This document shows, in pieces, positions 2,459 to 15,788 of a stretch of DNA of 64,000 nt (positions are counted from its first letter, which is position 1; every line of letters begins with the position of its first letter). Source of the DNA: Candidatus Omnitrophota bacterium. GTDB lineage: Bacteria; Omnitrophota; Gorgyraeia; Gorgyraeales; Gorgyraeaceae. Location: NCBI GenBank assembly GCA_043814965.1, contig JBDRJN010000006.1, positions 71,838 through 135,837 of the forward strand, in the 5' to 3' direction. Position numbers and translations under genes: made by a program. Below the pieces are notes generated by a model that was given only the letters and a program-made list of their open reading frames with translations, was not told the DNA's origin and made no database searches.

Positions 2459-3691
2459 ATGTCCATAGTAAAGAACAGAGCTTTTGAAAGCCACTTGCTA
2501 TCTGACCACGAGAGTAAGAACTTCTCTATGCTGGAACTTATAAGAAAAAATGGCCCTATCACAAGAGCTGATATATCAAAGATAACAGACCTTAATATTG
2601 TAACAGTATCAAACTATATAAATAATTTTATTAAAGCAGGGCTTGTAGTAGAAGGAGGCATGGAGGCATCTTCTGGCGGCAGGAAACCTACATTGGTAAA
2701 GCTTAATGAACGGCATGGTTTTGCCATAGGCATAGACCTGGGTAATATGGAGCTAGACCCCTCCAGGATGATAGGATTGGTCACTGATCTAGCTGGGCAT
2801 GTGGTGATAAGGGTGGAAAAGACCAGGCCAAAAGACACTATGAGCAATGTAATAGAAAAATCCATTGATTTCATAGAAGAACTTATAAGCAGAAAAGAGG
2901 TAGACCGTGAAAAGGTTAAGGGCGTAGGTATCTGTATCGGGGGTGTTATAGATGAGAATATGGGCACAGTGAGAGATTCGACCAAGGATGGAGTGAGGAC
3001 AAGCTATATGGCTATAAAAAATGCCATAGAACAAAAATATGGCATGCCGTCTTTTTTGGGTAATGATGCTACATTTGCAGCATTTGGAGAAAAGATGCAT
3101 GCATTGCCCTTGGATACGGAGAATGTGATATATATGTACTCTGATGTAGGTACAGGCATTATTATAAAAGGCAATATTTATTGCGGTGCCAGCGGTTCTG
3201 CGGGAGAGATGAGCATAAATTGCCCTAGGCCGGATGATTATATCAATATAGCAAAAAATCTGTCGTTCCTGCTTCCTATGGGAGTCGATCTTGGCTTAAT
3301 AAGGCAGGTCAAGAGGCTTATAGAAGAAGGTGTTGAATCAAAGATAAAAGATGACAAAGGTAAAATAGATAATATTACATTAGAGAATATCATAGAGGCA
3401 GCAAAGTCAGGAGATAGCTTTGCTATAGAATTACTTGAGGATGCAGCAGTCAATCTAGGCCTTAGGGTAGCGTATCTAGTCAATTTGTTCAACCCTGAGA
3501 TAGTGATAATAGGCGGGGGTGTCGAAGCTGCCGGCAGTTTATTCCTGGAGCCTCTAAGAAAGACAGTTCGCAGATGGGCTTTCGAAGAACCCGCTAATGT
3601 AGTAAAGATAATACCAGCCCAGCTGGGGAAGGATGCTGTTTCTCTGGGTGGAGCAAGTGTTGTAATAAGGAACCTCTTTATAAGCGCATAA
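2459..3691 (+). CDS. ROK-family protein (NagC/XylR-type repressor with N-terminal wHTH plus sugar-kinase fold)
   Basis: N-terminal HTH (LELIRKNGPITRADISKITDLNIVTVSNYINNFIKAGLV) is followed by a ROK/glucokinase-like region with Gly-rich ATPase motifs (GIGIDLG, GVGICIGGVID). AGGAGG lies 6 nt upstream of the ATG. Confidence 0.75.
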   Translation: MSIVKNRAFESHLLSDHESKNFSMLELIRKNGPITRADISKITDLNIVTVSNYINNFIKAGLVVEGGMEASSGGRKPTLVKLNERHGFAIGIDLGNMELDPSRMIGLVTDLAGHVVIRVEKTRPKDTMSNVIEKSIDFIEELISRKEVDREKVKGVGICIGGVIDENMGTVRDSTKDGVRTSYMAIKNAIEQKYGMPSFLGNDATFAAFGEKMHALPLDTENVIYMYSDVGTGIIIKGNIYCGASGSAGEMSINCPRPDDYINIAKNLSFLLPMGVDLGLIRQVKRLIEEGVESKIKDDKGKIDNITLENIIEAAKSGDSFAIELLEDAAVNLGLRVAYLVNLFNPEIVIIGGGVEAAGSLFLEPLRKTVRRWAFEEPANVVKIIPAQLGKDAVSLGGASVVIRNLFISA

Positions 3692-3711: not shown

Positions 3712-3851
3712 GGCTTACGTTCGCTCACTTTGTTCGCTCCAATTGATCAACAGTTATATCCCTCGCAACACAGTATCAAATAATGGCCGCTCGGGATTAA
3801 TTCGCACATTGGCTTACGTTCGCTCACTTTGTTCGCTCCGTAAGCCAAGTG
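3712..3851. repeat. Two 29-bp direct repeats (GGCTTACGTTCGCTCACTTTGTTCGCTCC at 3712-3740 and 3811-3839); the second is embedded in a 10-bp inverted repeat (TTGGCTTACG / CGTAAGCCAA)
   Basis: Read directly from the sequence. The internal heptamer TTCGCTC is itself duplicated within each unit. A downstream tandem ACCGTATCAA x2 lies at 3859-3880. Confidence 0.6.
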
Positions 3852-3897
3852 CTCATTAACCGTATCAAAACCGTATCAATAAAGTTGTAACGCTATA

Positions 3898-3926
3898 TTG
3901 ACAAATAATTAGTAGTATGATATACT
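3898..3926 (+). promoter_or_regulatory. Sigma70-type promoter TTGACA-N17-TATACT upstream of the efflux operon
   Basis: -35 TTGACA at 3898-3903, a 17-nt spacer and -10 TATACT at 3921-3926. AGGAG follows about 6 nt before the ATG at 3949. Confidence 0.5.
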
Positions 3927-3948: not shown

Positions 3949-5829
3949 ATGCAAAAAAAGCGTATCATACTACTAAACCTTATTGGAATTGCTGTTTTTA
4001 TAGTAGCATTTCAAACCGTATCATTTCCTTATAATACTGATAATACCACAGAATCTTTAACCAAATATATAGTAAATATATCAAGGGATATATCTAACTC
4101 TATCTTTCCTTATCCAAAATCTTCCATAGTCACTGATTCTAAAGGCAGCCTAAAACTAAAGATGCTTATCTCTCCATGGGGAGAGCTCAAAGATGTATAT
4201 ATTTATGAGTCATCCGGAAGCGATGAACTTGATAGTATATGCCTGCAGGCTGTATGGTCCAATGATAGGTATGAGCCTTTCCCAGAAGCCCTTGGCGAGG
4301 AAGAGAGGTGGATAGATATCCCTGTATTATTTGAGAATATCAAAGAAACACCAGAGTATATTTTGGATGATACGGATATGGATGTTCATTTATCAAGCAG
4401 AGACCTATTGGGTATTGATAGGGATGTGCTGCCGGAAGGGAATGCGTCAGGCAGTACCCATGTCTTAGGAATAGAAGAAGCTATAGATATTGCGATGGAA
4501 AATCATACACCTGCCGAGATCGCAAGAGATGAGATAAGCCTTTCAAACCTTAAGATGAAGGAGGCCAAGAGAGCGCTTTTCCCTACAGGAAGCCTTAATA
4601 TGCTTGAGACAATAGGAAGGACTACGGAGCGTACCCAGGATTTTACTGATAGGGAATATAAATTAAAATTTGAATACCCGCTCTTTTATGGCTGGAGATT
4701 GCGATACGCAGTTGAAAAGGCAAGGGCCAATATAAAGACATCAGAAGAGAATTATGATAAGGTATTGCAGGATCTCAGGGGAGAAGTAGAGGCGGCTTTT
4801 TATTCATACGTAGCAAAAAAGTCAAATCTAAAGCTGCAGCGTAACCTTCTAGAGAGCGTAAAAGGTGTCTTTGATATTGCAAAAAAAAGGCATGCGCTAG
4901 GGCTTAGCACCAACTCAGAGTTCTTACAGGTACAATCGCAGATGGAGCAGGTCAATTACCAAGTCGTCTCCAGCGAGAACGATCTTTCTATAGCAAAGCT
5001 TACTTTACAGCAGGCTGTAAACCTGGAGGATACTAAAGAACTTGAAAAATTGATAGATATGGATGTTGATATAGAGGATCTCAAGCCTTTGTCTATAGAC
5101 GCTCCCCTTGAAAAATGCCTGGAGCTGGCATTTAAATACAGGCCTGATCTAAAGGCAAAAAAGCACAATATCGAGTTTAATGAATACGAGGATAGGATCC
5201 AGAAAAGCAAGGACCAGATAAAAGTAGACCTTACTGGTTCTTATGGCCGTTCAGGGGGTGCTTTTCAATCCGAAAGCTTGCTCCTTTCAAATGATTGGTA
5301 TCTGGGATTAAAGGCATCCAAACCTCTTGGCGTAAATACACTCTCAACTGCTATGACAAAAGAGGAGACTACGGAAAAACACGGACAGACCTCCAGGACA
5401 GAATCAATGAGCCGTTCATTAGAATTGGGATTGATCGACAATCTGCAGTCCTTTTCCGAGAAGAAGACAAGCGAGATAGCCCTTAAGAAGGCAAAGGATG
5501 AATTAGACCAGATGAAAGATGCTATCATCAAAGAAATAAACGAGGCCTATTTAAGTTATAAAAAAGAGATAATGCAAGTAGCCTCCAGTTTAAATAAGAT
5601 CAATTATAAGGAAGAAGAACTTAATATCGCAAAGGCTCGTTTAGACCTGAACGAGATACCGTATTCACAGCTTATACAGGCATATATGACTCTTAACGAT
5701 GAAAAGACTTATTATGTCGAGGCAATAGGAAGTCTTTATCAGTCATTGTCCACTTTAAATAAGGCTACGGGGTATACATTATTTTTGGACAGTGAGAACT
5801 TTATGTTAGCAGATTCGAGGAAGAAATGA
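3949..5829 (+). CDS. TolC-family outer-membrane efflux protein with an N-terminal extension of about 170 aa that resembles a TonB C-terminal domain
   Basis: The C-terminal 450 aa show the typical OEP/TolC coiled-coil repeat pattern (EENYDKVLQDLRGEVEAAFY...LQRNLLESVKGVFDIAKKRHALGLSTNSEFLQVQSQ). The N-terminal region (SSIVTDSKGSLKLKMLISPWGELKDVYIYESSGSDELDSICLQAVWSNDRYEPFP) matches the TonB_C pattern (..G.V.V.F.I...G.V..V.V..SSG...LD.AA..AV....F.P). Confidence 0.75.
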   Translation: MQKKRIILLNLIGIAVFIVAFQTVSFPYNTDNTTESLTKYIVNISRDISNSIFPYPKSSIVTDSKGSLKLKMLISPWGELKDVYIYESSGSDELDSICLQAVWSNDRYEPFPEALGEEERWIDIPVLFENIKETPEYILDDTDMDVHLSSRDLLGIDRDVLPEGNASGSTHVLGIEEAIDIAMENHTPAEIARDEISLSNLKMKEAKRALFPTGSLNMLETIGRTTERTQDFTDREYKLKFEYPLFYGWRLRYAVEKARANIKTSEENYDKVLQDLRGEVEAAFYSYVAKKSNLKLQRNLLESVKGVFDIAKKRHALGLSTNSEFLQVQSQMEQVNYQVVSSENDLSIAKLTLQQAVNLEDTKELEKLIDMDVDIEDLKPLSIDAPLEKCLELAFKYRPDLKAKKHNIEFNEYEDRIQKSKDQIKVDLTGSYGRSGGAFQSESLLLSNDWYLGLKASKPLGVNTLSTAMTKEETTEKHGQTSRTESMSRSLELGLIDNLQSFSEKKTSEIALKKAKDELDQMKDAIIKEINEAYLSYKKEIMQVASSLNKINYKEEELNIAKARLDLNEIPYSQLIQAYMTLNDEKTYYVEAIGSLYQSLSTLNKATGYTLFLDSENFMLADSRKK

Positions 5830-7112
5830 TCAATACTAAAAAAATACTCATTGGTTTTATAGCGCTATGGGTATTGGGGTTTTTGATTATCTGGGGGATC
5901 ACACTTTCCAAAAGAGGTTCCGCAAAGAAAAAACCTGTCTCTTCATTTGATATGGAGCAGCTCGAGAAAGAAGATATGAGTATAGAGGGAGAAGAGGGGC
6001 TTGAACTAGCTACCGATGAAGTTGGTATGATGGATGGACTTATTGATTCTCAGGGTATGCCTTCTCAATCCCCGGACATGCAGCAGCAAGGCACCCAGGG
6101 GACAGAGGCCTTGCCTGTCAGATGTTATAAGATCAGCCTTATGGATTTTAAAGATGACCTGCCTGTAATGGGTATTGTAAAGGGTTCTTCAGAGATAGAG
6201 CTTAAGTTTGAGATAAACGGCGTGATCGAATCTATAAATTTCAGAGAAGGGGATGTTGTCTATAAAGACGACAAGATAGCTAACCTTGACAAAAAAGACG
6301 CAAAACTTAAGGTAGAATATTCAAAGAGTAAACTCGATTCTTCTAAGGCGCAGGCCCTGGCAGCTAAGAAAAAATTAGAGATACATAAGGATCTTTATGA
6401 TATAGGAGCTATTATAAAGGCAAAGCTGGAGGAAGTTGAACTTGAGGCAAGGGCAGCAGAGCTCCAGGCAAAGTCTGCAGAAGTGGAACTCAAGTCAGCG
6501 GAAGAAGAGTTAAATAAAACAGATATGTATGCGCCGAGAGATGGGGTGCTTGGTTCGCGTGATGCCGAGGTGGGAGAATTTGTAACTCCTCAAAATAAGA
6601 TAGGGACTCTTTATGATACAGCCCAGGTATTCGTAGAATTGGGTATAGTGGAAAGAGACATAGACAAGATCGCATTGGCCCAGGATGTTGTAGTGACTGT
6701 TGATACTTATCCTGACATGGTATTTACAGGTACTGTTGACAATGTGTTTCCTATAGTTGAAGGCAAATCAAGGACCCTTACTGTCAGGGTAGGAATAGAT
6801 AACGAGGATAACCTGCTTTTACCTGGCATGTTCGCAAGGGCAAAGATCACTATAGCTCAGTTCGAAGATGCGATAGTGATACCTAGCTTTGCATTGGATA
6901 AGACAGACGAAGGATACAAGGTCTTTGTAGTATCTCAAAGCAACATAGCGTCTCCCAGGGATATAGAAGTAGAATATGTGACTACGGATTATACAGTGAT
7001 CCAGTCTGGTTTGAGCGAGGGAGAAGTAGTTGTTATAGATGCGCCTCAGGAATTAAAAGATGGCGTGCCTGTAAATATCATAGATCTGCAGGAAAGCAGC
7101 GCTAAAGAGTAA
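5826..7112 (+). CDS. RND efflux membrane-fusion (periplasmic adaptor) protein, HlyD/AcrA family
   Basis: Signal anchor, a biotin-lipoyl-like motif (INFREGDVVYKDDKIANLD), a coiled-coil, and beta-barrel/MPD motifs (DMYAPRDGVLG...VTPQNKIGTLYD...VVTVDTYPDMVFTGTVDNVFP). The start overlaps the tolC stop (ATGA), implying translational coupling. Confidence 0.8.
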   Translation: MINTKKILIGFIALWVLGFLIIWGITLSKRGSAKKKPVSSFDMEQLEKEDMSIEGEEGLELATDEVGMMDGLIDSQGMPSQSPDMQQQGTQGTEALPVRCYKISLMDFKDDLPVMGIVKGSSEIELKFEINGVIESINFREGDVVYKDDKIANLDKKDAKLKVEYSKSKLDSSKAQALAAKKKLEIHKDLYDIGAIIKAKLEEVELEARAAELQAKSAEVELKSAEEELNKTDMYAPRDGVLGSRDAEVGEFVTPQNKIGTLYDTAQVFVELGIVERDIDKIALAQDVVVTVDTYPDMVFTGTVDNVFPIVEGKSRTLTVRVGIDNEDNLLLPGMFARAKITIAQFEDAIVIPSFALDKTDEGYKVFVVSQSNIASPRDIEVEYVTTDYTVIQSGLSEGEVVVIDAPQELKDGVPVNIIDLQESSAKE

Positions 7113-7232: not shown

Positions 7233-10200
7233 ATGAGCCTTCCACATTTTTCAGTAGATAAACCCGTAACAACATCCATGATATTCGTAGGCATACTGCT
7301 TTTGGGAGTCATATCCCTGACGCGCCTGCCTCAAGAGCTTTTTCCATCCGTAAATTTTCCTCAACTTACAATAGTCACGACTTATGAGAATGCTGCCCCT
7401 GAAGAAGTCGAGACATTGATAACAAAGATCATAGAAGAGACAGTAGGGACCGTAGGGAGCATCAAGAGGGTAAGCTCTATATCGAAAGAGGGAGTTTCTA
7501 TAGTCACTGCTGAGTTCAATTGGGGCACCAATATGGATTTTGCCTCATTAGGCGTAAGGGAAAAGATAGACCTTGTAAAGGAACGCCTTCCCCTGGGATC
7601 AGCTGACCCGATAGTGATGAAGTTCAATCCATTTGAACTCCCGGTTGTTACCCTTAGTGTTACAGGAAAACATTCTCCAGCTGAGCTTCTGCGCCTTTCA
7701 AGAAAATTCATCAAGGATGAATTGGAAAAAGTCGAAGGAGTAGCTTCTTGCAGTGTGAACGGAGGCCTTGAAAGAGAGATACTTGTCTCAGTGGACGCGG
7801 GAAGGCTTTACGCGTCAAAAATAGCTATTACAAAGATCGTTGATGGCCTGCGTTCGTCAAACCTCAATTATCCTGCAGGCACAATAGAAGAACATTTTTA
7901 TGAGTATCTTATCAGGACTATGGGAGAGTTCAAGCTGATACCAGAGATACAAGAGACGATTATAGGCAAGGACGAGGAAGAAGACAAAGGGTACATGAAC
8001 CCGAATCGGGAGGAGGCAAAGACCGATATCAGGGCATCGCGTTTGATATTACTTAAAGATGTAGCAGAGATAAAAGACACATTTCAGGAAAAGACAAACA
8101 TCTCCAGGTACAATGGCAAAGAAAATATCTCAGTTTCAGTGCAAAAACAAGCAAGCGCGAATACATTGCGTGTCGCTGATAAGGTAAGGGATAAATTAGA
8201 AGATATCAAAAGAGATCTCCCGAAGGGCATGGATGTCACGATAATATACGACCAGTCGATATTTATCAAAAAATCAATAAGCGGAGTGATGGACGCGGCT
8301 GTGCAGGGAGGCATGCTTGCATTTATAGTGCTTTTTGTGTTCTTAAGGAATGTCAAGGCGTCTTTCGTAGTAGCGTTTTCAATGCCTGTAAGTATCATGG
8401 TGGCGTTTACGCTTATGTATTTTAACGGTATCACATTGAATATGCTTTCCCTTGGAGGCCTCGCGCTCGGTATAGGTATGCTTGTCGATAATGCTATAGT
8501 CGTCATAGAGAATATCTATGTCCATTTTAATAGGACCAGGGATATGAAGGAATCCAGTAAGTTCGGGGCGAGCGAGATGTCAGCGAACCTGTTTTCATCC
8601 ACGCTTACTACAGTAGCGGTATTTTTACCTATGGTGTTTGTCGTCGGAGTAGCCGGGCAGTTGTTCAAAGAACTCGCGTTTACTGTTATATTCTCACTGT
8701 TAGCGTCTTTATTGGTGGCATTGTCATTGATACCGCGCTTGGCAGCAATGGGGGGCAGTAATCCAAAAAAAGTAAAGGCTATATCCACGGCGAATTTTAC
8801 ATTTGGACTTGGACCTATATATAATAAATTTATACCTATAGTATTAAGGTTTAGATGGTTATTTTTACTTTTCGTGATGGGAATTTTTGTATTGAGTATA
8901 GGGCTATTTCCATTCATAGATAAAGAATTCATGCCAAAGGTAGACCAAAGAGAATTTATCATGAGAGTGAACATGCCGAACGGGACAAGGCTTAATATAA
9001 CAGACAGGGTAGTGAAAAGAGTAGAAAATATACTCCTCGAGACCAAAGAATTAGAAGGTATAGCTGTTACTATAGGTTCCAGTAAAAGTAAGGGTGATTC
9101 ACAGAGCCTGGAGATGATGAGCTCTTCGCAGTCACAGATCATAGTGGCATTAAAAAAGGACAGAAAACTGGCCCATACTTCTAAGGTCATAGAAAGGCTG
9201 AAAGACCAATTTGACAAGTTGAACCTGGAAGGCGCTGAAATAGAATATATACTCCAGGAGAGCTTTTTTAAATCAGCGATGCAGGGATCAGCCCCGATCG
9301 TAATAGAGATAAAAGGTAAAAACCTTGAAAATATAGAGGAGGTATCTAAATACATACAGGAAAACATTGCGAACATAGGAGGTATCTATGGCGTGCGTAC
9401 AAGCCTTTCCGAGCCTTCTCCTGAGACAAAAGTAAATGTCATACAGGATAGGGCTGCGCTTTACAATCTTTCTACAGGAGTCATCTCCCAGGCAGCTCAT
9501 GCTGCTATAAAGGGAGCCGTGGCTACTAAATTTAAGGAAGAGGGCAAGGAGATAGATATAAGGGTAAGGCTTAGGAATGAGGACCGTTCCAAGCTTTCTA
9601 ACCTCAGAAATATTCTTATACATTCCCCGCTTGATATAGAAGTGCCCCTGTCGGAAGTAGCATATATCACGCAAGGCGTCGGGCCCAGCGAGATAAAACG
9701 CCTTGACCAGCAGAGGGTTATCCTCGTGACAGCTAATCTGTCCGAACGGCCTCTTAATAAAGTAATAAAAGATGTGGAGGTATTGATAAAAGAGACAGAA
9801 GAGACGATGGCTGAAAAGATAAATGCTTCTAAATCCGCAGAAAAGGATATTACAATAACGCTGTCTGGAGAAAGCCAGCAAATGGGGGAGAGCTTTAGTT
9901 CTTTGGCATTTGCTTTGATGCTTTCAATACTCCTGGTATACATGATAATGGCTTCGCAGTTTGAATCATTATGGCAGCCTTTTATAATAATGTTCACTAT
10001 GCCTTTATCCCTTACAGGGGTTTTCGCGATTTTATTTATTACGCGTACTCCTATAAGCGTCGTTGTCATGCTCGGAGTCATAATCCTGGGAGGCATTGTC
10101 GTTAATAATGGTATTATTTTAATAGATTGCATCAATGCGCTTGTAAAAGAAGGCAAAACTATAATGGAGGCTGCTATAGAATCCGGCAGCGCAAGGCTCA

Positions 10201-10829
10201 GGCCTATAATAATGACCACTATGACTACAGTATTAGGGCTTTTTCCTCTGGCGCTTGGGATATCAGAAGGGTCAGAGCTTCAGAGCCCTATGGCTATAAC
10301 GGTGATGGGAGGGCTTACTATATCGACTATACTTACACTTTTTGTCATACCCTGCATATATACACTTGTAGCAGACTTTATCTCATCAAGGGTCCTTAAA
10401 GTACAGCCAATAGCTGTGAGCGCAGTGGAAGAACCCGCAGTCTTAAGACCTGGTGAGATCAGGGCTATCATGATACCTCCGCCTAACTGGTTGGCAGCCA
10501 AACCCCCCAGAGAAGAAAAGATAGACGAGCCTATAGAGGAAAGAGAAGGACCTATGCAGGAAGAAGGGCCTGTTATCGGAGATGCAAAAGTCCCAAAAGA
10601 AATTATTGTAAAAGAAGGCTCTTTCCAATTGAATAGAAGGCAGAAAAAACTTCTGGAGCACCTGAAGACAGTGGATCATATTACACGTAAAGAATACGCG
10701 GTCCTTTTTAATATATCGATAGCAACTGCAGCGAGGGACCTGAAGGAATTGCTGGAGAATGGGTCTTTGACCGCGAGCGGCCCTCTTGGGCCTGGGCGCT
10801 GGTATGAATTAAAAATGGGTAACGGGTAA
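7233..10829 (+). CDS. RND (HAE1/AcrB-family) inner-membrane efflux permease with a fused C-terminal winged-HTH-like domain (1198 aa)
   Basis: Canonical AcrB architecture: 12 TM segments and two large periplasmic loops, with conserved motifs (GGLALGIGMLVDNAIVVIENI, RLRPIIMTTMTTVLGLFPLAL). A C-terminal K/E/P-rich linker of about 60 aa is followed by LNRRQKKLLEHLKTVDHITRKEYAVLFNISIATAARDLKELLENGSLTASGPLGPGRWYEL. This matches the wHTH found at the C-terminus of Fic and divergent-AAA 'RecG C-terminal' proteins. Confidence 0.85.
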   Translation: MSLPHFSVDKPVTTSMIFVGILLLGVISLTRLPQELFPSVNFPQLTIVTTYENAAPEEVETLITKIIEETVGTVGSIKRVSSISKEGVSIVTAEFNWGTNMDFASLGVREKIDLVKERLPLGSADPIVMKFNPFELPVVTLSVTGKHSPAELLRLSRKFIKDELEKVEGVASCSVNGGLEREILVSVDAGRLYASKIAITKIVDGLRSSNLNYPAGTIEEHFYEYLIRTMGEFKLIPEIQETIIGKDEEEDKGYMNPNREEAKTDIRASRLILLKDVAEIKDTFQEKTNISRYNGKENISVSVQKQASANTLRVADKVRDKLEDIKRDLPKGMDVTIIYDQSIFIKKSISGVMDAAVQGGMLAFIVLFVFLRNVKASFVVAFSMPVSIMVAFTLMYFNGITLNMLSLGGLALGIGMLVDNAIVVIENIYVHFNRTRDMKESSKFGASEMSANLFSSTLTTVAVFLPMVFVVGVAGQLFKELAFTVIFSLLASLLVALSLIPRLAAMGGSNPKKVKAISTANFTFGLGPIYNKFIPIVLRFRWLFLLFVMGIFVLSIGLFPFIDKEFMPKVDQREFIMRVNMPNGTRLNITDRVVKRVENILLETKELEGIAVTIGSSKSKGDSQSLEMMSSSQSQIIVALKKDRKLAHTSKVIERLKDQFDKLNLEGAEIEYILQESFFKSAMQGSAPIVIEIKGKNLENIEEVSKYIQENIANIGGIYGVRTSLSEPSPETKVNVIQDRAALYNLSTGVISQAAHAAIKGAVATKFKEEGKEIDIRVRLRNEDRSKLSNLRNILIHSPLDIEVPLSEVAYITQGVGPSEIKRLDQQRVILVTANLSERPLNKVIKDVEVLIKETEETMAEKINASKSAEKDITITLSGESQQMGESFSSLAFALMLSILLVYMIMASQFESLWQPFIIMFTMPLSLTGVFAILFITRTPISVVVMLGVIILGGIVVNNGIILIDCINALVKEGKTIMEAAIESGSARLRPIIMTTMTTVLGLFPLALGISEGSELQSPMAITVMGGLTISTILTLFVIPCIYTLVADFISSRVLKVQPIAVSAVEEPAVLRPGEIRAIMIPPPNWLAAKPPREEKIDEPIEEREGPMQEEGPVIGDAKVPKEIIVKEGSFQLNRRQKKLLEHLKTVDHITRKEYAVLFNISIATAARDLKELLENGSLTASGPLGPGRWYELKMGNG

Positions 10830-10838
10830 CCCGAACTT

Positions 10839-13800
10839 ATGAATCTATCAGAATTTTCAGTTAGAAGGCCAATAACTATTTTAATGCTTTTTGTTGCAGT
10901 AGTTCTCATAGGGGTAGTTTCTCTATCAAGGCTTCCTGTTGAACTTATGCCCAATATCTCCTATGGAGATATGAGTATTATTATAGCTGTCAGGGGCGGT
11001 ATGCCGCCAGAAGAAGTCGAGACGCTTGTTACAAAGCCGGTTGAAGAGGCTGTAAGTACTGTTAATTATCTGCAGAATATATACTCTACTTCCAAGGCCG
11101 GAGAATCAAGGGTATCTCTGGAGTTCGAACCTGGCACTGATATGAATTTTGCAGCCCTTGAAGTAAGAGAAAAATTTTCAAAGGTAAGAGATAAGCTCCC
11201 CAAAGAGATACAAAAACCTATAATAGCTCAATACAAGGAATCCGACAGGCCTGTCTATCTCTTGGCAGTCATGGGGGAGGGGTATACTCCTGAGGCTATG
11301 CGAAAGATCGTGGATGAGCAGTTCAAAGAAAGCCTCTTGCGTATAGAAGGGGTCGCGAACGTAGAAGTATATGGAGGAAGAGAAAGAAAGATCCTGGTCG
11401 ATATAAGGAAGAACAAGCTAAAACAATATAATATACCCATAGATCTTGTTGTCAATGCGCTTGGATCTAATAACTTGAATCTATTGGCAGGGGACATAGA
11501 GCAGGATTACAATAAATATCTGGTAAGGATAATAGGCGAATTTAAATCCTTGGATTATATAAAAAATATCGGTATCAGCGCTTCTCCGGAAGGCCATATT
11601 ATAAAACTCGGTGAAGTCGCGGACGTAAAGGACTCTTTTTTAGAACCTACCAGTTATGCCAGGACGGATATAGAACCAGTGGTATCCGTAAGTATACAGA
11701 AAGAATCCACCGCTAACACTATAGATGTGGTAGCCAATATAGAAAAACAACTTGGCATATTAAAAAGAGGCATCGATAAAAAGATAGTCATAAAGACCAC
11801 TCTTAATCAAGCTGTTACCATACAAGAGGCAATAAAATCAGTCCAGACATCTCTTTTGTACGGCGCTATGTTGGCAATAATGGTGCTTTTATTGTTTTTA
11901 AGGGACCCGCGCATTACTTCTATCATAGGGGTCACTATCCCCATATCAGTCATGGCTACTTTTATATTGATGTATTTCAACAAGATCACGATCAATGTCA
12001 TGACGCTGAGCGGCCTTGCGCTCGGCATAGGTATGCTCGTGGATAATTCTATAGTAGTGCTTGATAATGTTGACAAAAAAAGGCAGGACGTGGATTTCTC
12101 CAAACAAAACTGGAAGGAAGTATATACTGACGCGGTCATAACAGGTTCTTCAGAAGTAGGGCTTGCGATACTTGCTTCTACCATTACGACAATAGTCGTG
12201 TTTTTGCCATTTATATTTGTCAATAAAGAGACACAGATGCTTTGGGGAGGGCTTGCCCTGACAGTGACATTTTCACTCCTTAGTTCATTGTTTGTGTCCT
12301 TGACTATAGTGCCTATGCTTTCTGATAAGATAAAACACCCGCCCAAAAAACCAAAGAAGCCCAAAAAGAGCTTTTTAAAAAGCAGCATTTTCTTAAAAAT
12401 ACCTGTGTATTATAGAAAGGCCCTGGAATTGGGATTAGTGTACAGATATTTTATGGTATTGGGCGCATTTATAGTGTTGCTCCTTATGCTGTTTTTGGGC
12501 GCAGGCATAGACAAGGAATTTATGGCAGGCTCTGAAGAGGGCAGGTTCACTATGTTTGTAGAGCTTGAGCCAGGCGCAAAACTCGACGTGACAGACGAGA
12601 TGGTCAAGGAGATGGAACAGCTTATTACCAAGATACCCGAGATAAAGACATTTAGCGCAAGGATCGAACCTTGGTCCAGCAAGATATATGTCAAGCTTGT
12701 GCCTTTAGCCCAGAGGGAGCGCTCGACAAAGGTTGTTATCGATTATATAAGAGCTGAGGCAAAGGCAATAGAGCAAAAATATAAAGGAGGTTTCATATAT
12801 TTTTCTGAGATAGAAGAGAAAGGTTTAAAGGAAATAGTGCTGGACTTATATGGTTATGAATATGAGCCTCTAAAGGAAACAGCTGTCTCTATCGCTACAA
12901 GGCTTGGGGCTGTCGAGGGATTTCAGGATATAAGGATGTCCAGGATAAGCGGCAGGCCTGAATGGGCGATAGAAGTTGACAGAGAAAAAGCAGCTATTTT
13001 TGGGCTTACTGTAAAAGATGTGGCGGATACTATCCACTCAGAGATGAGAGGGTTAAGGGCGACATTATTTCATACCGAGTCGAGAGAGATAGAGACAGTT
13101 TCTCGTTTGATAAAAGAAGACAGAGCGAGGTTAGATGACCTTAAAAAACTCCCTATTTTCGCGAAGAACGGAAACCCGATATTGCTGGAACAGGTAGCGA
13201 GCTTTACTCCGCAGATAGGTTCCAGCGAGATAGTAAGAAAAAACAAGATGAGAGTAGTGCATATAACTTCCATGATCACGAATATGTCACTTATCACAGC
13301 AGTTAGTAAGGTAAGAGAAGCCCTGAAGGACATGGAGTTCCCGACAGATTATTATTACAGGATAGGAGGGAGTTTTGAGAGGGACCAGAGGAATGAGAAA
13401 GAGTTGTGGGCTTTTCCGACCGGTGTATTATGGATAACTTTGTTTTTGGTCTATCTTGTCCTTGCCTCGCTTTTTGAATCTTATATCCAGCCTTTTATTA
13501 TCATGATATCTGTACCGCTCGCTATTATAGGAATAATACTTGCATTGAAGATATCCCATAAGCCTATCAGCAGGGGTGTAATAATAGGCGCTATAATGCT
13601 GGCAGGTATTGTCGTCAATAATGCGATCGTCCTCGTGGACAGGATAAATTTTTTACGTAAACAAAAAGGATCTACGGAAGAAGATGAGGCAGAGGATCTA
13701 TGGAATTCTCTTATTACTGCAGGAGAAGACCGATTAAGGCCGATAGCAATGACTACTGCTACTACTATATTGGGGCTTGTCCCAATGGCGCTTGATAAGA

Positions 13801-14018
13801 GTGAATCCGCAAATCTCTGGGCGCCGCTTGCGATCACTGTGATAGGGGGCATGACTTCTTCGACCTTGCTCACCTTGTTTGTAGTACCAGGTATATATCT
13901 TATATTCGAAGATGTGAAGAATATAGTACTTAAACCAAAAGAGTTAATATTATTTGTCCAAAATAAAATATATGGTATAATAAATAGAAAGACTACTTAT
14001 GATACAGATAGATTATAG
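10839..14018 (+). CDS. Second RND (AcrB-family) efflux permease, a tandem paralogue
   Basis: Same AcrB-like motif set (GLALGIGMLVDNSIVVLDNV, RLRPIAMTTATTILGLVPMAL) in 1059 aa. It contains a lysine-rich HPPKKPKKPKKSF tract in a periplasmic/linker region. Confidence 0.85.
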   Translation: MNLSEFSVRRPITILMLFVAVVLIGVVSLSRLPVELMPNISYGDMSIIIAVRGGMPPEEVETLVTKPVEEAVSTVNYLQNIYSTSKAGESRVSLEFEPGTDMNFAALEVREKFSKVRDKLPKEIQKPIIAQYKESDRPVYLLAVMGEGYTPEAMRKIVDEQFKESLLRIEGVANVEVYGGRERKILVDIRKNKLKQYNIPIDLVVNALGSNNLNLLAGDIEQDYNKYLVRIIGEFKSLDYIKNIGISASPEGHIIKLGEVADVKDSFLEPTSYARTDIEPVVSVSIQKESTANTIDVVANIEKQLGILKRGIDKKIVIKTTLNQAVTIQEAIKSVQTSLLYGAMLAIMVLLLFLRDPRITSIIGVTIPISVMATFILMYFNKITINVMTLSGLALGIGMLVDNSIVVLDNVDKKRQDVDFSKQNWKEVYTDAVITGSSEVGLAILASTITTIVVFLPFIFVNKETQMLWGGLALTVTFSLLSSLFVSLTIVPMLSDKIKHPPKKPKKPKKSFLKSSIFLKIPVYYRKALELGLVYRYFMVLGAFIVLLLMLFLGAGIDKEFMAGSEEGRFTMFVELEPGAKLDVTDEMVKEMEQLITKIPEIKTFSARIEPWSSKIYVKLVPLAQRERSTKVVIDYIRAEAKAIEQKYKGGFIYFSEIEEKGLKEIVLDLYGYEYEPLKETAVSIATRLGAVEGFQDIRMSRISGRPEWAIEVDREKAAIFGLTVKDVADTIHSEMRGLRATLFHTESREIETVSRLIKEDRARLDDLKKLPIFAKNGNPILLEQVASFTPQIGSSEIVRKNKMRVVHITSMITNMSLITAVSKVREALKDMEFPTDYYYRIGGSFERDQRNEKELWAFPTGVLWITLFLVYLVLASLFESYIQPFIIMISVPLAIIGIILALKISHKPISRGVIIGAIMLAGIVVNNAIVLVDRINFLRKQKGSTEEDEAEDLWNSLITAGEDRLRPIAMTTATTILGLVPMALDKSESANLWAPLAITVIGGMTSSTLLTLFVVPGIYLIFEDVKNIVLKPKELILFVQNKIYGIINRKTTYDTDRL

Positions 14019-14042: not shown

Positions 14043-15788
14043 ATGGATAAAAGCGTTCGTACGATCCTGACTATTCTTATAGTACTTGTGATCCTGAGCA
14101 GTTTTAGTACAGCATGGTTTTTTCTTGCCAAAGAGAGAATTTACACGGATTATCTCAGCCTGGAGAATCTTTTTAAGACGAGTGTGGAGAGGCTTAATAG
14201 AAAGCTTACTGCTTCAAACAGGAATAATAAATCTCTAGCTGCAAAATTGGAGATGGTCTCAAGAGAACTTGAATCCTTGGAGAGAAAAAACAATTCCATG
14301 GCCAGCCAATACGATAGCTTATTAAGAGAAAAAGATGAGCTAAAGAGGGAAGTCGCAAGGGTTCAAAAAGGCAAATTTTTCCTGGATAAGAGAGTAAGGA
14401 GTATGGAATCAGATGAATTTATGGCAAGGCTATTAAAAGATAAGGCTTCGCTGGAAGTCGAGGTGAATGGCTTGAAAAATATGGCCGGGCCAAAGGATAT
14501 GGAGGTAGAGAAGCTCAGGGCACAGAATACTGATCTCGGGATGAAGATAGCCAGGCTTGAAAAAGAAGCGATTTTATTGGAGGGCAGGTTAAGGGATTCA
14601 GGAGAAGTCGCGGAGGCTTTAAGCAGGGACCTTTTAAAAGAAAAAGACAAGGCTAGTTCAAAGAATTTTGATATAGAAAATCTGATGAATGAAAACAGGT
14701 TATTGACGGCAAAGCTGGACCAGAATGAAAAGGTCTATGGAAAGGCCGGCAGGGCCATAGAAGAAAACGATGATCTAAGATTAAGGCTCGCAAAACTCAA
14801 AGAAGAGCTTGAGGATAAAGAAAGGGTCAGCGAACGCCTGTTGAGGTCTAAGGACGAGGAGCTAAAGAGGGTTTCAAAAGAACTTGATATCGTTGCCAGA
14901 GAGAAAGAAGATATCTCAATGACATTGTTTGCATTACAAAAAGACTTGAATACAAAAGATACAGAGATAGCTAAGTTGAATCGGTCGCTCTCAGATAAAT
15001 TCGATACTAAAAAAGAACTCAAAGAGACATCCGAGAGGATAAACAGCCTCCTGTCAGAACGAGAAGATATGAGGCTTAGGATGTATGCGCTGGAGAAAGA
15101 CCTGGAGACAAAGGACAAGGTAAAAAGCAGTTTATTGAAAGGCCAGGCCGCAGGTGTAAAGAATTTTGATAATATCATACAGGAAAATGAAAGTCTTAGG
15201 TCGCATATAGCAAAACTGGAAAAGGACCTTAAGGGCCAGGATAGGCTTAGAAAAAAACTGGTCAAGATGAAGGCGGAAGAGCTTGATGAGGTTTCGAGAA
15301 AATATAGCAGCCTCCTTAATGAGAGGGAAGATCTCAGGATAAAGCTCGTCAAGCTGGAAAAATATCTGAATTCCAAGAATATAGAGCTTGGCGGGTTGAG
15401 TTCTATGCTGGCAAGTAATACGGATCACAGCACACCTTATAGGGCAGAGGCATATCATACACTGAAAGAAGTCGATCTTCCTCCGATAGTATTACAGAGA
15501 GAAGGAGAGAGCAGCGCAACCAGTGGTATTACTGGTGCCAGGATAGCGTCGGGCTCTGAGAGCAGGGCAAGAGTAGTCACTATAAATAGAGAACATAAGT
15601 TTGTAGTCATAGATATAGGCCAGGAATACAATGTCGATGTAGGAGATAGATTCAGTGTTTATAGAGGGGATGATATAATAGGACTTGTAGAAGTGATACA
15701 AGCTAGAAAGAAGATAGCAGCTTGTGACATAAAAGATGAAAAGAGCGGATTCACCATAGAATCCGGAGATATCGTCAAAAAGAGATAG
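14043..15788 (+). CDS. Membrane-anchored long coiled-coil protein with internal repeats of about 45 aa and a C-terminal small beta-barrel (OB/PRC-like) domain
   Basis: An N-terminal TM helix (ILTILIVLVILSSFSTAWFFLA) is followed by about 450 aa of heptad-like E/K/L-rich sequence with repeated LEKDL.TKD / LSEREDMRLR...L.KLEK units. The C-terminal segment is VVTINREHKFVVIDIGQEYNVDVGDRFSVYRGDDIIGLVEVIQARKKIAACDI. Confidence 0.5.
   Translation: MDKSVRTILTILIVLVILSSFSTAWFFLAKERIYTDYLSLENLFKTSVERLNRKLTASNRNNKSLAAKLEMVSRELESLERKNNSMASQYDSLLREKDELKREVARVQKGKFFLDKRVRSMESDEFMARLLKDKASLEVEVNGLKNMAGPKDMEVEKLRAQNTDLGMKIARLEKEAILLEGRLRDSGEVAEALSRDLLKEKDKASSKNFDIENLMNENRLLTAKLDQNEKVYGKAGRAIEENDDLRLRLAKLKEELEDKERVSERLLRSKDEELKRVSKELDIVAREKEDISMTLFALQKDLNTKDTEIAKLNRSLSDKFDTKKELKETSERINSLLSEREDMRLRMYALEKDLETKDKVKSSLLKGQAAGVKNFDNIIQENESLRSHIAKLEKDLKGQDRLRKKLVKMKAEELDEVSRKYSSLLNEREDLRIKLVKLEKYLNSKNIELGGLSSMLASNTDHSTPYRAEAYHTLKEVDLPPIVLQREGESSATSGITGARIASGSESRARVVTINREHKFVVIDIGQEYNVDVGDRFSVYRGDDIIGLVEVIQARKKIAACDIKDEKSGFTIESGDIVKKR

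What the first reader, a model, noticed from the sequence alone, without database searches (positions are those of the whole stretch)
7233..10829. RND efflux permease fused in frame to a C-terminal winged-HTH DNA-binding-like domain
The first of two tandem AcrB-family permeases continues past its normal end, just after TM12. The sequence then runs through a P/E/K-rich linker of about 60 aa into a domain of about 65 aa (LNRRQKKLLEHLKTVDHITRKEYAVLFNISIATAARDLKELLENGSLTASGPLGPGRWYEL). This has the hallmark pattern of the wHTH found at the C-terminus of Fic proteins and divergent-AAA 'RecG-C-terminal' regulators (LNxRQkk.L.yl...g.itn.eY..l.gvS..TA.RDLkeL...G.l...G.Gr.t.Y.l). The tail of an AcrB-type pump is cytoplasmic, so the wHTH would sit in the cytoplasm, tethered to the pump. 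That suggests a one-component, membrane-tethered autoregulator of efflux. I know of no described RND pump with this arrangement. The operon has no TetR/MarR-type local regulator, and the upstream intergenic region carries 29-bp direct repeats that could be the operator.
Basis: partly seen in the sequence, partly recalled or inferred. Interest (0 to 1): 0.7.

Follow-up and report, generated by a model that had tools for sequence, protein, structure and literature searches.

The report
Efflux pump carrying a DNA-binding-type tail
One subunit of a two-permease RND efflux pump really does end in a flexibly tethered, DNA-binding-type winged-helix domain inside the cell; the fusion is conserved across the phylum Omnitrophota and I found no description of it, but what the domain binds is still unknown.

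Summary
ORF 7233-10829 (1198 aa) is a complete 12-TM RND permease, followed by a disordered P/E-rich linker of about 75 aa and a basic 65-aa winged helix-turn-helix (wHTH).

The domain hits Pfam HTH_DeoR above its threshold. AlphaFold models it at pLDDT about 90. Its closest solved relative is the DNA-binding C-terminal HTH of Coxiella Fic2.

The fusion is not an assembly artefact:
- 110 of the 119 closest homologues carry the tail, and most of the others are cut by contig ends.
- All 7 loci found through the neighbouring outer-membrane gene carry it.
- All 80 Omnitrophota genome loci examined have the domain behind an RND permease body, and a second, tail-less RND paralogue follows wherever downstream sequence is held.
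- Only one small clade truly lacks the tail.

- A ROK-family HTH regulator sits directly upstream in every close relative examined, so a local regulator does exist.
- The 29-bp repeats are not conserved. They belong to a recurrent hairpin element.
- The conserved promoter element is a tandem AACYGTATCA box. It also precedes other genes that neighbour the ROK gene, so ROK is the simpler candidate binder.

Most likely the tail is a membrane-tethered DNA-binding module. Autoregulation is unproven. I found no description of this architecture in the literature.

The parts
2459..3691 (+). ROK-family regulator (N-terminal wHTH plus ROK domain, GGRKP linker); a conserved upstream neighbour of the pump operon
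   Evidence: Pfam ROK E 2e-36 and HTH_24 E 3e-7. The gene lies upstream of the outer-membrane gene in all 7 distinct relatives (66-72% identity), with an MFS gene inserted between them in one.
3712..3740 (+). 29-bp direct repeat, copy 1 (a partial duplicate of the hairpin arm and loop)
3811..3839 (+). 29-bp direct repeat, copy 2; it forms the 5' arm and loop of the hairpin
3804..3852 (+). Stable hairpin with the loop GTTCGCTCACTTTGTTCGCTCC; part of a recurrent non-coding element of about 140 nt
   Evidence: Folding energy -21.7 kcal/mol, z -6.2. L091 has the same loop with compensatory changes in the stem. No Rfam family matches.
3858..3878 (+). Tandem AACCGTATCA boxes with an 11-bp period, 20 bp upstream of the -35
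   Evidence: Boxes are present at the same place in all 7 distinct close relatives: a tandem pair in six and a single box in L086.
3898..3926 (+). Sigma-70-type promoter TTGACA-17-TATACT with an extended TG
   Evidence: 11 of 12 consensus matches; conserved in relatives.
3958..4023 (+). Two further box copies (3958-3967 with one mismatch, 4014-4023 exact) inside the start of the outer-membrane gene
   Evidence: The 56-bp spacing is kept in L084 and L087. Coding constraint cannot be excluded.
3949..5829 (+). Outer-membrane factor with an N-terminal TonB_C domain
   Evidence: Pfam OEP E 6e-43 and TonB_C E 3e-8. Most of the 120 listed homologues carry both domains in the precomputed Pfam annotation.
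5826..7112 (+). Membrane-fusion (periplasmic adaptor) protein
   Evidence: Pfam HlyD_D23 E 5e-30.
7233..10397 (+). RND1 permease body (residues 1-1055, 12 TM segments), slightly closer to MdtB than to MdtC
   Evidence: ACR_tran E 7e-234; NCBIfam scores; hydropathy; AlphaFold model.
10398..10619 (+). Disordered P/E/K-rich cytoplasmic linker (residues 1056-1129)
   Evidence: pLDDT 30-40 with no secondary structure. Mean identity among 66 orthologues is 23%, and the length ranges from 26 to 324 aa.
10620..10829 (+). Basic wHTH domain (residues 1130-1195), short tail and stop codon
   Evidence: HTH_DeoR above its cut-off. AlphaFold pLDDT 90 and 81-92 in the full-length model. Foldseek hits to wHTH proteins at TM 0.7-0.84. 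Net charge is +3 here and averages +5.2, with pI 9.3-10.6, across 66 orthologues.
10839..14018 (+). RND2 permease, a tail-less paralogue, slightly closer to MdtC
   Evidence: It follows RND1 at every locus examined that holds downstream sequence.
14043..15788 (+). Membrane-anchored coiled-coil protein, conserved downstream in operons of the window's type

Best explanation
What it is.
The first permease of a two-permease RND efflux system (outer-membrane factor, adaptor, RND1, RND2) carries a cytoplasmic tail. The tail is an intrinsically disordered linker ending in a small, strongly basic wHTH. The wHTH belongs to the DeoR-like / Fic-C-terminal clade. The fusion is a conserved trait of a large part of the phylum Omnitrophota.

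How it most likely works.
1. The wHTH binds DNA while tethered to the inner membrane. RND1 would then be a multi-pass member of the class called transmembrane transcription regulators.
2. The linker acts as a leash that lets the domain reach the nucleoid, which is close to the membrane in these very small cells.
3. The linker is disordered and highly variable in length. The amount or assembly state of the pump, rather than its transport cycle, would therefore set how much wHTH is available.
4. The plausible output is feedback on transcription of its own operon or of a small regulon. This would act together with, not instead of, the conserved ROK regulator upstream.
5. If the two paralogues form an MdtB2C-like 2:1 heterotrimer, each pump would present two wHTH domains, the number a DNA-binding dimer needs.

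Shown versus inferred.
- Shown: the fusion, its conservation, the fold, the charge and the disorder of the linker.
- Inferred: DNA binding (my estimate about 0.6), any regulatory role (about 0.35), and the identity of the target (open).
For: Real and conserved.
- 110 of the 119 nearest homologues carry the C-terminal domain.
- All 7 loci seeded through the outer-membrane gene carry it.
- All 80 genome loci have RND body, linker and wHTH, followed by RND2 wherever downstream sequence is held. They show two different operon layouts.

Under selection. Among 66 orthologues, mean pairwise identity is 65% for the wHTH, 60% for the pump body, 65% for the TM core and 23% for the linker.

Fold. The domain has H1-strand-H2-H3-wing topology at pLDDT 90. 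Foldseek matches DNA-bound wHTH proteins (AspA, MarR, the ArsR-type CadC) and Coxiella Fic2 at TM 0.84.

Family. The best PDB profile hit is the C-terminus of Coxiella Fic2, entry 8cil (E 0.0019). More distant profile hits include two proteins shown to have the AlbA_2 plus HATPase_c_4 architecture (P0130 and P0026) and proteins of about 366 aa with the domain near the C-terminus, taken to be Fic proteins from their length although Pfam found no Fic domain in the one tested, P0086.

DNA binding in a relative. The Fic2 HTH mediates binding to double-stranded DNA and DNA-induced dimerisation (PMC10628234).

Chemistry. The domain is basic in all 66 orthologues, with net charge +3 to +14 and pI 9.3-10.6. 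The invariant residues (R7, Q8, R23, K24, T36, R39, R60 in domain numbering) fall on H1, H2, the recognition helix and the wing, where wHTH proteins typically contact DNA (the positional reading is inference).

Linker. It is disordered in the full-length model.

Precedent. Proteins with a DNA-binding domain and up to 22 TM segments are widespread (PMC10269533).

Candidate target. A conserved cis-element, the tandem AACYGTATCA boxes, lies just upstream of a near-consensus promoter in the close relatives: a tandem pair in six and a single box in one.
Against: - There is no direct evidence of DNA binding.
- A conventional candidate regulator, ROK, is conserved next to the operon.
- The promoter boxes also precede a zinc-ribbon gene and an 82-aa membrane-protein gene next to ROK genes, which makes ROK the more parsimonious binder.
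- The same boxes occur beside integrase genes in high-GC organisms, and none of 120 box-bearing loci encodes this wHTH nearby.
- Operons of the second layout (RND1-RND2-adaptor) show no shared operator-like motif upstream of RND1.
- The characterised relative, Fic2, bound random DNA, so sequence-specific regulation is not implied.
- One clade has lost the tail (P0377, P0390, P0398), and one contig has an in-frame TAA in the linker. The tail is therefore dispensable in some lineages.
- The promoter is near-consensus with an extended -10, so it does not look activator-dependent.
Confidence: 0.4

Rival explanations
1. Architectural tether. The wHTH binds DNA with little sequence specificity and simply anchors nucleoid DNA to the pump or the membrane. 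This could serve chromosome organisation, positioning of the pump, or coupling of transcription and translation to membrane insertion. No gene-specific regulation would be involved.
For: The nearest characterised relative binds random double-stranded DNA at nanomolar affinity. The domain is almost invariant across the phylum, whereas local regulators and their operators usually co-vary. The linker is long, variable and disordered, like a leash. No operator common to both operon layouts was found. Some low-GC box loci lie next to parB, yidC and jag-like genes; these genes typically lie near replication origins, from general knowledge, and the link is only suggestive.
Against: A pump is an odd anchor for a general nucleoid tether. 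Tail-less lineages exist. There is no evidence for where the domain binds.
Confidence: 0.25
2. Protein-docking module. The wHTH is a protein-protein interaction domain that recruits or sequesters a cytoplasmic partner at the pump. The most attractive partner is the neighbouring ROK regulator, by analogy with membrane sequestration of the ROK repressor Mlc by the glucose transporter PtsG.
For: ROK and the pump are neighbours in every close relative examined. Mlc inactivation by membrane sequestration is an established paradigm for ROK repressors (reference list of PMC4288165; PMC13482132). Winged-helix folds also serve as protein-binding modules; ESCRT-II subunits appear among the fold matches.
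Against: The strongly basic charge and the conserved residues at DNA-contact positions favour nucleic acid. PtsG uses an unrelated EIIB domain. Operons of the second layout have the tail but no ROK gene in the sequence held, up to 6 kb either side of the wHTH. The tail-less clade keeps ROK.
Confidence: 0.15
3. Releasable regulator. The tail is cut from the pump by a protease within the disordered linker and then acts as a soluble transcription factor, as in regulated intramembrane or site-specific proteolysis.
For: The linker is long, exposed and disordered, so it is accessible to proteases. One natural variant, L211, encodes linker plus wHTH as a separate 114-aa ORF after an in-frame stop.
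Against: The linker has no conserved motif that could serve as a cleavage site; identity is 23%. A dedicated protease is not a conserved neighbour. The single split case may be a sequencing error or a pseudogene.
Confidence: 0.1
4. Artefact. A lost stop codon, a frameshift or a misassembly joined an RND gene to a separate small HTH gene.
For: One contig (L211) does have an in-frame stop in the linker. Many small 'standalone' database entries exist.
Against: Those small entries are contig-edge fragments or internal-start calls that still carry TM12 or linker sequence. The fusion is in frame in more than 100 independent assemblies spanning 41-100% identity.
Confidence: 0.01

Closest known systems
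Transmembrane transcription regulators (ToxR, TcpP, CadC, BcrR; survey in PMC10269533)
   Same: A cytoplasmic DNA-binding domain is covalently tethered to the inner membrane. The class includes multi-pass members with up to 22 TM segments. ToxR-type members use a winged helix and bind repeats upstream of the -35 (the last point is from my own knowledge).
   Different: The classic members have an N-terminal OmpR-type wHTH, one TM segment and a periplasmic sensor. Here the wHTH is C-terminal and of the DeoR/Fic-C type. It hangs on a disordered leash of 26-324 aa behind a complete 12-TM RND transporter. Regulation is unproven. The survey does not mention efflux pumps.
C-terminal wHTH of Fic proteins (Coxiella burnetii Fic2, PDB 8cil) and of AlbA_2 plus HATPase_c_4 proteins (such as DIP2311, PDB 3lmm)
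   Same: The sequence signature is shared: LNxRQ...ITxxEY...S..TAxRDL..L...G.GR..Y. These give the best PDB profile hit and the highest TM-score. The domain is C-terminal in all. The Fic2 HTH mediates DNA binding and DNA-induced dimerisation.
   Different: The partner domain is an enzyme or a Schlafen-like module rather than a transporter, and those proteins are soluble. The Omnitrophota subfamily forms a tight cluster of its own, scoring 78 bits or more, with the invariant wing GPLGPGRWYEL.
DeoR-family regulators (Pfam HTH_DeoR, PF08220)
   Same: The tail scores above the Pfam gathering cut-off. The recognition helix S-x-P-T-A-A-R-D-L parallels the DeoR motif S..TIRRDL (the motif comparison is from my own knowledge).
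   Different: There is no DeoR C-terminal sensor domain, and the HTH is C-terminal instead of N-terminal. One homologue (P0364, 1158 aa) carries the source name 'DeoR family transcriptional regulator', which I take to be automatic annotation. That name is misleading.
MdtABC-type RND systems with two different permeases (E. coli MdtB2C heterotrimer)
   Same: An adaptor gene is followed by two tandem paralogous RND genes. RND1 scores slightly better against MdtB and RND2 against MdtC. The pair is found at every locus that holds downstream sequence.
   Different: All scores are far below the equivalog cut-offs, so these are not orthologues. The heterotrimer and its 2:1 stoichiometry are inferred, not tested. 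MdtB has no tail. Here the outer-membrane factor is in the operon and carries a TonB_C domain.
Transporter-regulator partnerships ('trigger transporters': PtsG-Mlc, MalK-MalT, LysP-CadC, BceAB-BceS)
   Same: A transporter controls the availability of a DNA-binding protein at the membrane. Mlc is a ROK-family repressor, like the conserved neighbour here.
   Different: Those are non-covalent pairs. Here the DNA-binding-type domain is part of the transporter polypeptide.
RND proteins with cytoplasmic C-terminal extensions (mycobacterial MmpL3)
   Same: An RND-superfamily transporter is followed by a largely disordered cytoplasmic C-terminal region (my own knowledge, not checked here).
   Different: The MmpL3 tail has no HTH and is implicated in localisation and protein interactions, not DNA binding.

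Membership tests
RND permease (Pfam ACR_tran, HAE1-like; NCBIfam RND_permease_2 subfamily) | Full-length match to the AcrB/AcrD/AcrF model | tested here: met
   ACR_tran E 7e-234, covering residues 5-1046 against model positions 3-1020 of 1021.
RND permease (Pfam ACR_tran, HAE1-like; NCBIfam RND_permease_2 subfamily) | 12 TM segments in a 1+5/1+5 arrangement with two large periplasmic loops | tested here: met
   Hydropathy peaks and helices in the AlphaFold model.
RND permease (Pfam ACR_tran, HAE1-like; NCBIfam RND_permease_2 subfamily) | Score above the NCBIfam subfamily cut-off (1250 bits) | tested here: not met
   619.7 bits for NF033617. This is a divergent member and cannot be assigned to a named subfamily.
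Winged helix-turn-helix fold | Topology of H1, strand, H2, H3 and a beta-hairpin wing | tested here: met
   AlphaFold pLDDT 90, reproduced in the full-length model. Foldseek probability 1.0 with TM 0.70-0.84 to MarR, CadC/ArsR, AspA and Fic2.
Pfam HTH_DeoR (PF08220) | Score at or above the gathering cut-off of 21 bits | tested here: met
   22.5 bits on the whole protein and 25.7 bits on the tail alone. The margin is small.
DeoR-family transcription regulators | N-terminal HTH plus a C-terminal DeoR-type sugar-phosphate sensor domain | tested here: not met
   There is no DeoR C-terminal domain, and the HTH sits at the C-terminus of a transporter.
Fic-C-terminal / AlbA_2-HATPase_c_4-C-terminal wHTH clade | Significant profile similarity to the C-terminal wHTH of these proteins | tested here: met
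   8cil residues 301-357, E 0.0019. The exhaustive profile search recovers proteins of about 366 aa with the domain near the C-terminus (Fic-like in length; Pfam found no Fic domain in the one tested, P0086) and AlbA_2 plus HATPase_c_4 proteins at E 1e-10 to 1e-13.
Transmembrane transcription regulators | A DNA-binding domain and at least one TM segment in one polypeptide (the survey's operational definition) | tested here: met
   definition from PMC10269533.
Transmembrane transcription regulators | Binds DNA and changes transcription while in the membrane | not testable with these tools
   This needs EMSA or DAP-seq and reporter assays.
   Tandem AACYGTATCA boxes are conserved at the promoter. 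They are not pump-specific and they track the ROK, zinc-ribbon and 82-aa neighbourhood. None was found upstream of RND1 in operons of the second layout.
   A ROK-family HTH regulator is conserved immediately upstream.
MdtBC-like heteromeric RND pump | Two paralogous permease genes in tandem behind one adaptor gene | tested here: met
MdtBC-like heteromeric RND pump | A 2:1 heterotrimer of the two permeases | not testable with these tools
   This needs multimer modelling or biochemistry.

The most novel reading that the evidence does not exclude
An efflux pump that is itself a DNA-binding protein. The tails of the MdtB-like subunits would bind defined chromosomal sites. The candidates are the tandem AACYGTATCA boxes at the pump's own promoter and at a handful of other loci. 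The number of assembled pumps in the membrane would then directly set transcription of the pump regulon, or physically hold those loci at the membrane. That would be a transporter-based transmembrane transcription regulator, conserved across a whole phylum of ultra-small bacteria.
Probability: 0.3. Interest if true: 0.8.

Novelty: new variant of a known kind. Interest (0 to 1): 0.6.

Why it matters
RND pumps are among the best-studied bacterial transporters. As far as I know, their regulation is described as involving separate soluble regulators (TetR, MarR, AraC or two-component systems). A pump subunit that carries its own conserved DNA-binding-type domain would add a new design to two fields: efflux regulation and membrane-tethered transcription factors.

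It would also give a simple, testable case of how a multi-pass membrane protein can reach the chromosome. The organisms are an uncultured phylum of very small cells, where membrane and nucleoid are never far apart.

In practical terms, most of these proteins are named plain 'efflux RND transporter permease' in databases, and at least one is named 'DeoR family transcriptional regulator'. The architecture is therefore invisible to anyone who reads only the names.

Tried and rejected
1. Assembly artefact or lost stop. Rejected on comparative evidence.

2. The 29-bp repeats as operator. Rejected, because relatives lack them and they belong to a hairpin element seen elsewhere.

3. The tandem AACYGTATCA boxes as the tail's private operator. 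This cannot be sustained.
- A metagenome scan gave at least 120 loci across GC 0.26-0.62.
- Among the high-GC loci, a recurrent context is the 3' flank of a tyrosine integrase gene of about 395 aa.
- Some loci are iteron-like arrays.
- No locus encodes the wHTH nearby.

4. 'The tail-less clade also lacks boxes'. I considered this and withdrew it. In L210 and L212, ROK, the zinc-ribbon gene and the pump look like one operon whose promoter lies beyond the fetched DNA.

5. An operator upstream of RND1 in operons of the second layout. Only terminators of the preceding secreted-protein genes and short leaders were found, with no shared motif.

6. The apparent inverted box in the promoter spacer. 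It is simply the extended -10, TGnTATACT.

7. Rfam search of the intergenic region. Nothing significant.

8. Exact look-ups of the window's own RND1 and outer-membrane proteins in the contig index. Not on record. The source is therefore known only as an NCBI Omnitrophota MAG contig of 152,804 bp.

9. Non-RND contexts of the domain. Most short hits are fragments of RND tails. P0018, and perhaps P0036, look like internal-start pieces of long coiled-coil-like linkers. P0017 and P0042 may be chimeric gene calls. None of these was pursued.

Full report
**1. The observation**

ORF 7233-10829 on the plus strand is one uninterrupted reading frame of 1198 codons. Pfam matches the AcrB/AcrD/AcrF model end to end: residues 5-1046, E 7e-234. 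A second match, HTH_DeoR, covers residues 1136-1179. It scores 22.5 bits on the whole protein and 25.7 bits on the tail alone, against a gathering cut-off of 21. HTH_11 and HTH_24 are sub-threshold.

The next gene, 10839-14018, is a second RND permease of 1059 aa with no tail. Hydropathy gives the canonical twelve TM segments, the last at 1028-1046. AcrB-type permeases have both termini in the cytoplasm, which is established knowledge, so the tail is cytoplasmic.

A full-length AlphaFold model was built on 50 homologues. TM12 runs as a helix to residue 1055. Residues 1056-1130 have no secondary structure, with pLDDT 30-40. Residues 1131-1195 fold as a confident domain, pLDDT 81-92.

Modelled alone on a 17-sequence alignment, the domain reaches pLDDT 90. 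Its topology is H1, strand, H2, H3 and a beta-hairpin wing. Foldseek against the PDB returns winged-helix DNA binders (AspA, MarR, the ArsR-type CadC). The highest TM-score, 0.84, is to the C-terminal domain of Coxiella burnetii Fic2, entry 8cil. The same entry is the best sequence-profile hit in the PDB (E 0.0019).

**2. Is the fusion real?**

I tested this three ways.

- *Seeding on the tail.* A search with the tail returned 25 proteins, all with the same 65-residue domain. Many are contig-edge fragments that still carry TM12 of an RND permease in front of a Pro/Glu/Lys-rich linker.
- *Seeding on the domain in genomes.* A scan of one genome per species with the domain alignment gave 114 confirmed loci, of which 80 were kept. 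Most are labelled Omnitrophota. About a quarter carry other labels: 'uncultured Planctomycetia' or 'Planctomycetales', one 'Patescibacteria group' and one plain 'bacterium', none of which I could verify. One is 'Candidatus Undivivens', which is Omnitrophota. In every locus the domain lies behind an RND permease body, and a second RND permease follows wherever downstream sequence is held.
- *Seeding without regard to the tail.* Loci found through the neighbouring outer-membrane gene carry the tail in 7 of 7 distinct cases. Of the 119 nearest homologues of the whole permease (50-73% identity), 110 have the domain, and 109 of those have it within 15 residues of the C-terminus. Five of the other nine are cut by contig ends in the pump body, the linker or the first helix of the domain, and one looks frameshifted. 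Three (P0377, P0390, P0398) truly end after TM12.

The window's own protein is deposited unchanged at NCBI as a single gene of an Omnitrophota MAG (P0284, contig 152,804 bp). A lost stop codon or an indel is excluded as the origin of the architecture. I could not look at reads.

**3. Anatomy across the phylum**

Two operon layouts exist.

- Outer-membrane factor, adaptor, RND1 with wHTH, RND2, coiled-coil protein. This is the window's type, with RND1 bodies 60-81% identical to the window's.
- RND1 with wHTH, RND2, adaptor. Here the bodies are 41-55% identical.

Among 66 full-length orthologues, mean pairwise identity is as follows.

| Region | Mean pairwise identity |
|---|---|
| Pump body | 60% |
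| TM core | 65% |
| wHTH | 65% |
| Linker | 23% |

The linker varies from 26 to 324 residues. It is Pro/Glu/Lys-rich in most proteins and Glu/Gln/Ala/Leu-rich, like a coiled coil, in the longest.

The wHTH is basic in every orthologue: net charge +3 to +14, mean +5.2, pI 9.3-10.6. Its consensus is LNxRQxxLLExLKxxxKITRKEYAxxFxISxPTAARDLKELxDKGxLxAxGPLGPGRWYEL.

An exhaustive profile search of 1.8 billion representatives shows a tight core family. It comprises about 80 representatives scoring 78 bits or more, made up largely of RND tails and of short fragments that look like pieces of RND linkers. A more distant halo follows. It includes two proteins with the AlbA_2 plus HATPase_c_4 architecture (P0130 and P0026) and proteins of about 366 aa with the domain near the C-terminus, which I take to be Fic proteins from their length although Pfam found no Fic domain in the one tested, P0086. 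It also contains a few proteins with an N-terminal TM anchor, a coiled coil and the wHTH.

NCBIfam scores put RND1 marginally nearer MdtB and RND2 nearer MdtC. That fits a heteromeric pump but is weak evidence.

**4. The surroundings contradict part of the interpretation**

*The neighbouring regulator.* The gene immediately upstream (2459-3691) is a ROK-family protein with an N-terminal winged helix (HTH_24, E 3e-7) and the GGRKP linker typical of DNA-binding ROK regulators such as NagC and Mlc (PMC4288165). It occupies the same position in all 7 distinct relatives that I could fetch with upstream DNA, with an MFS gene inserted between it and the outer-membrane gene in one of them (L084). What lies further upstream falls into two unrelated contexts: a glycoside-hydrolase/TPR cluster, or a tRNA with an 82-aa gene and a FIST/kinase/GGDEF cluster. 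It is also present in the tail-less clade. The operon therefore does have a conserved candidate local regulator.

*The 29-bp repeats.* They are real but are absent from the relatives, whose intergenic regions are only 58-170 bp. Copy 2 forms the 5' arm and loop of a stable hairpin at 3804-3852 (z -6.2). A metagenome contig from another organism, L091, has the same loop and flanks, but compensatory changes in the stem, at a different locus (z -4.6). This is a recurrent non-coding element, not a pump operator.

**5. What is conserved at the promoter**

All relatives share a near-consensus promoter: TTGACA, 17 bp, TATACT, with an extended TG (window 3898-3926). Ten to thirty-five bp upstream of the -35 lie one or two copies of AAC(C/T)GTATCA in tandem with an 11-bp period (window 3858-3878). 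I tried to assign these boxes to the tail and could not.

The contexts were as follows.

- Among the high-GC contigs, a recurrent context is the 3' flank of a tyrosine integrase gene of about 395 aa.
- Some loci are long iteron-like arrays.
- In Omnitrophota-like, low-GC contigs, the boxes precede an 82-aa membrane-protein gene, a small zinc-ribbon basic protein gene, parB, and the outer-membrane gene of the pump. They also follow yidC and jag-like genes and tRNAs.

The zinc-ribbon gene, the 82-aa gene and the ROK gene occur together with the boxes, as in L141 (boxes, zinc-ribbon, 81-aa, ROK) and L161 (zinc-ribbon, boxes, outer-membrane gene). In the tail-less clade the order is ROK, zinc-ribbon, pump. 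The simplest reading is that the boxes mark a small regulon whose common neighbour is ROK, although ROK operators described so far are quasi-palindromes.

No box-bearing locus encodes the wHTH nearby. Operons of the second layout show no shared motif upstream of RND1. The binder of the boxes remains open among ROK, the tail, the zinc-ribbon protein and something else.

**6. Mechanism**

What is shown: a conserved, selected, basic winged helix is held on a disordered cytoplasmic leash by one subunit of a two-permease pump.

What is inferred:

- The domain binds DNA. The grounds are its fold, its charge, the invariant residues on H1, H2, the recognition helix and the wing, and the DNA binding of the Fic2 relative (PMC10628234). 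That relative bound random sequence, and its HTH was needed for DNA-induced dimerisation.
- Under the operational definition used in the survey of transmembrane transcription regulators, RND1 is a multi-pass member of that class. The survey records members with up to 22 TM segments but does not mention efflux pumps.
- The linker is disordered and varies twelve-fold in length. I therefore think allosteric transmission of the transport cycle to the wHTH is unlikely. A dosage or assembly read-out is more plausible: more pump means more tethered wHTH near the DNA. Simple tethering is the other option.

My estimates are: DNA binding about 0.6; a gene-regulatory role about 0.35; autoregulation through the tandem boxes about 0.2-0.3.

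The rivals are an architectural nucleoid-membrane tether, a docking site for a protein such as ROK (by analogy with Mlc-PtsG), and proteolytic release. One contig (L211) has an in-frame TAA in the linker followed by a separately called 114-aa ORF holding linker and wHTH. One clade has no tail. The tail is therefore not indispensable.

**7. Comparison and novelty**

The parts are known: an RND permease, a wHTH of the DeoR/Fic-C type, and membrane-tethered DNA-binding proteins as a class. The combination is not described in anything I could find. In databases most of these proteins are named plain RND permease, and one is named 'DeoR family transcriptional regulator' (P0364).

It is not a DeoR-family regulator, because it has no sensor domain and the HTH is at the wrong end. 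It is not a ToxR-type regulator, because the winged-helix family, the topology and the absence of a periplasmic sensor all differ. I rate it a new variant of a known kind. Its interest is moderate to high because it is phylum-wide and easy to test, tempered by the absence of any functional evidence and by the presence of a conventional regulator next door.

Noticed in passing
window 3858-3878; L081-L089 about 6410-6470; L141 2072-2093; L161 698-719 and 881; L188 507-528; L095, L101, L102, L105, L114: Tandem AAC(C/T)GTATCA boxes with an 11-bp period mark a recurring gene set in Omnitrophota-like contigs. The set comprises the pump's outer-membrane gene, a small zinc-ribbon basic protein (97-131 aa), an 81-82-aa membrane protein and a ROK-family regulator. 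It looks like a small regulon. The binder is unknown, and ROK is the most parsimonious candidate.
   Followed up: partly
window 3760-3856 (hairpin 3804-3852); L091 5500-5603; L124 about 2240-2290: A conserved non-coding element of about 100-140 nt. It consists of ATGGCnnCTCGGGATTAATTnGCAC, a hairpin with the invariant loop GTTCGCTCACTTTGTTCGCTCC and compensatory stem changes, then GTGCTCATT and the tandem boxes. It occurs at different loci in different organisms. There is no Rfam match. It could be a small RNA or the end of a mobile element.
   Followed up: partly
L090, L109, L137, L168, L181, L187, L201 and others (GC 0.55-0.62): In high-GC metagenome contigs the same tandem box, with a third copy about 25 nt further on, lies directly after the stop codon of a tyrosine integrase gene of about 395 aa ending ...KKYSQMKLQMKREALQKLNRQANE. 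This looks like arm-type or att-site repeats of an integrative element.
   Followed up: no
L208 7225-7320; L209 about 4770; L107 7220-7290; L194 3397-3560: Long arrays of 5 to more than 8 copies of the 11-bp unit AACTGTATCAT / AACCGTATCAA. They resemble iterons. In L208 the array lies just upstream of an 819-aa ORF, and in L194 directly after a tRNA 3' end.
   Followed up: no
window 3949-5829: The outer-membrane factor carries an N-terminal TonB_C domain (residues 54-129). Most of the 120 listed homologues (51-60% identity) carry both TonB_C and OEP in the precomputed Pfam annotation. The tail-less clade (L210, L212) has a longer outer-membrane protein with a different N-terminal region.
   Followed up: partly
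window 14043-15788: A 581-aa protein with an N-terminal TM anchor, about 450 residues of coiled coil and a small beta-rich C-terminal domain. It follows RND2 in most operons of the window's layout (23-53% identity) and is absent from the second layout.
   Followed up: no
L210 1166-1534; L212 1079-1372: In the clade whose RND1 lacks the tail, a zinc-ribbon, highly basic small protein is encoded between the ROK gene and the outer-membrane gene. Whether it substitutes for the tail is unknown.
   Followed up: partly
L211 5890-6001; L025 4528-4678: Two interrupted copies. L211 has an in-frame TAA in the middle of a long linker, with the downstream linker and wHTH called as a separate 114-aa gene (P0008). 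In L025 the RND1 body is split. Each could be a sequencing error, a pseudogene or a functional split.
   Followed up: partly
P0026 (2918 aa): The best-scoring hit of the wHTH profile is a giant protein with an N-terminal TM segment, two AlbA_2 plus HATPase_c_4 modules and four wHTH-like stretches.
   Followed up: no
L021 20-2062; L043 5-2111; L073 605-2570, and other loci of the second layout: Operons of the second layout are preceded by two conserved genes for secreted proteins. One has about 260 aa and the other about 300-400 aa and is rich in Thr and Ser. Neither has a Pfam match. Each gene is followed by a terminator-like hairpin.
   Followed up: no
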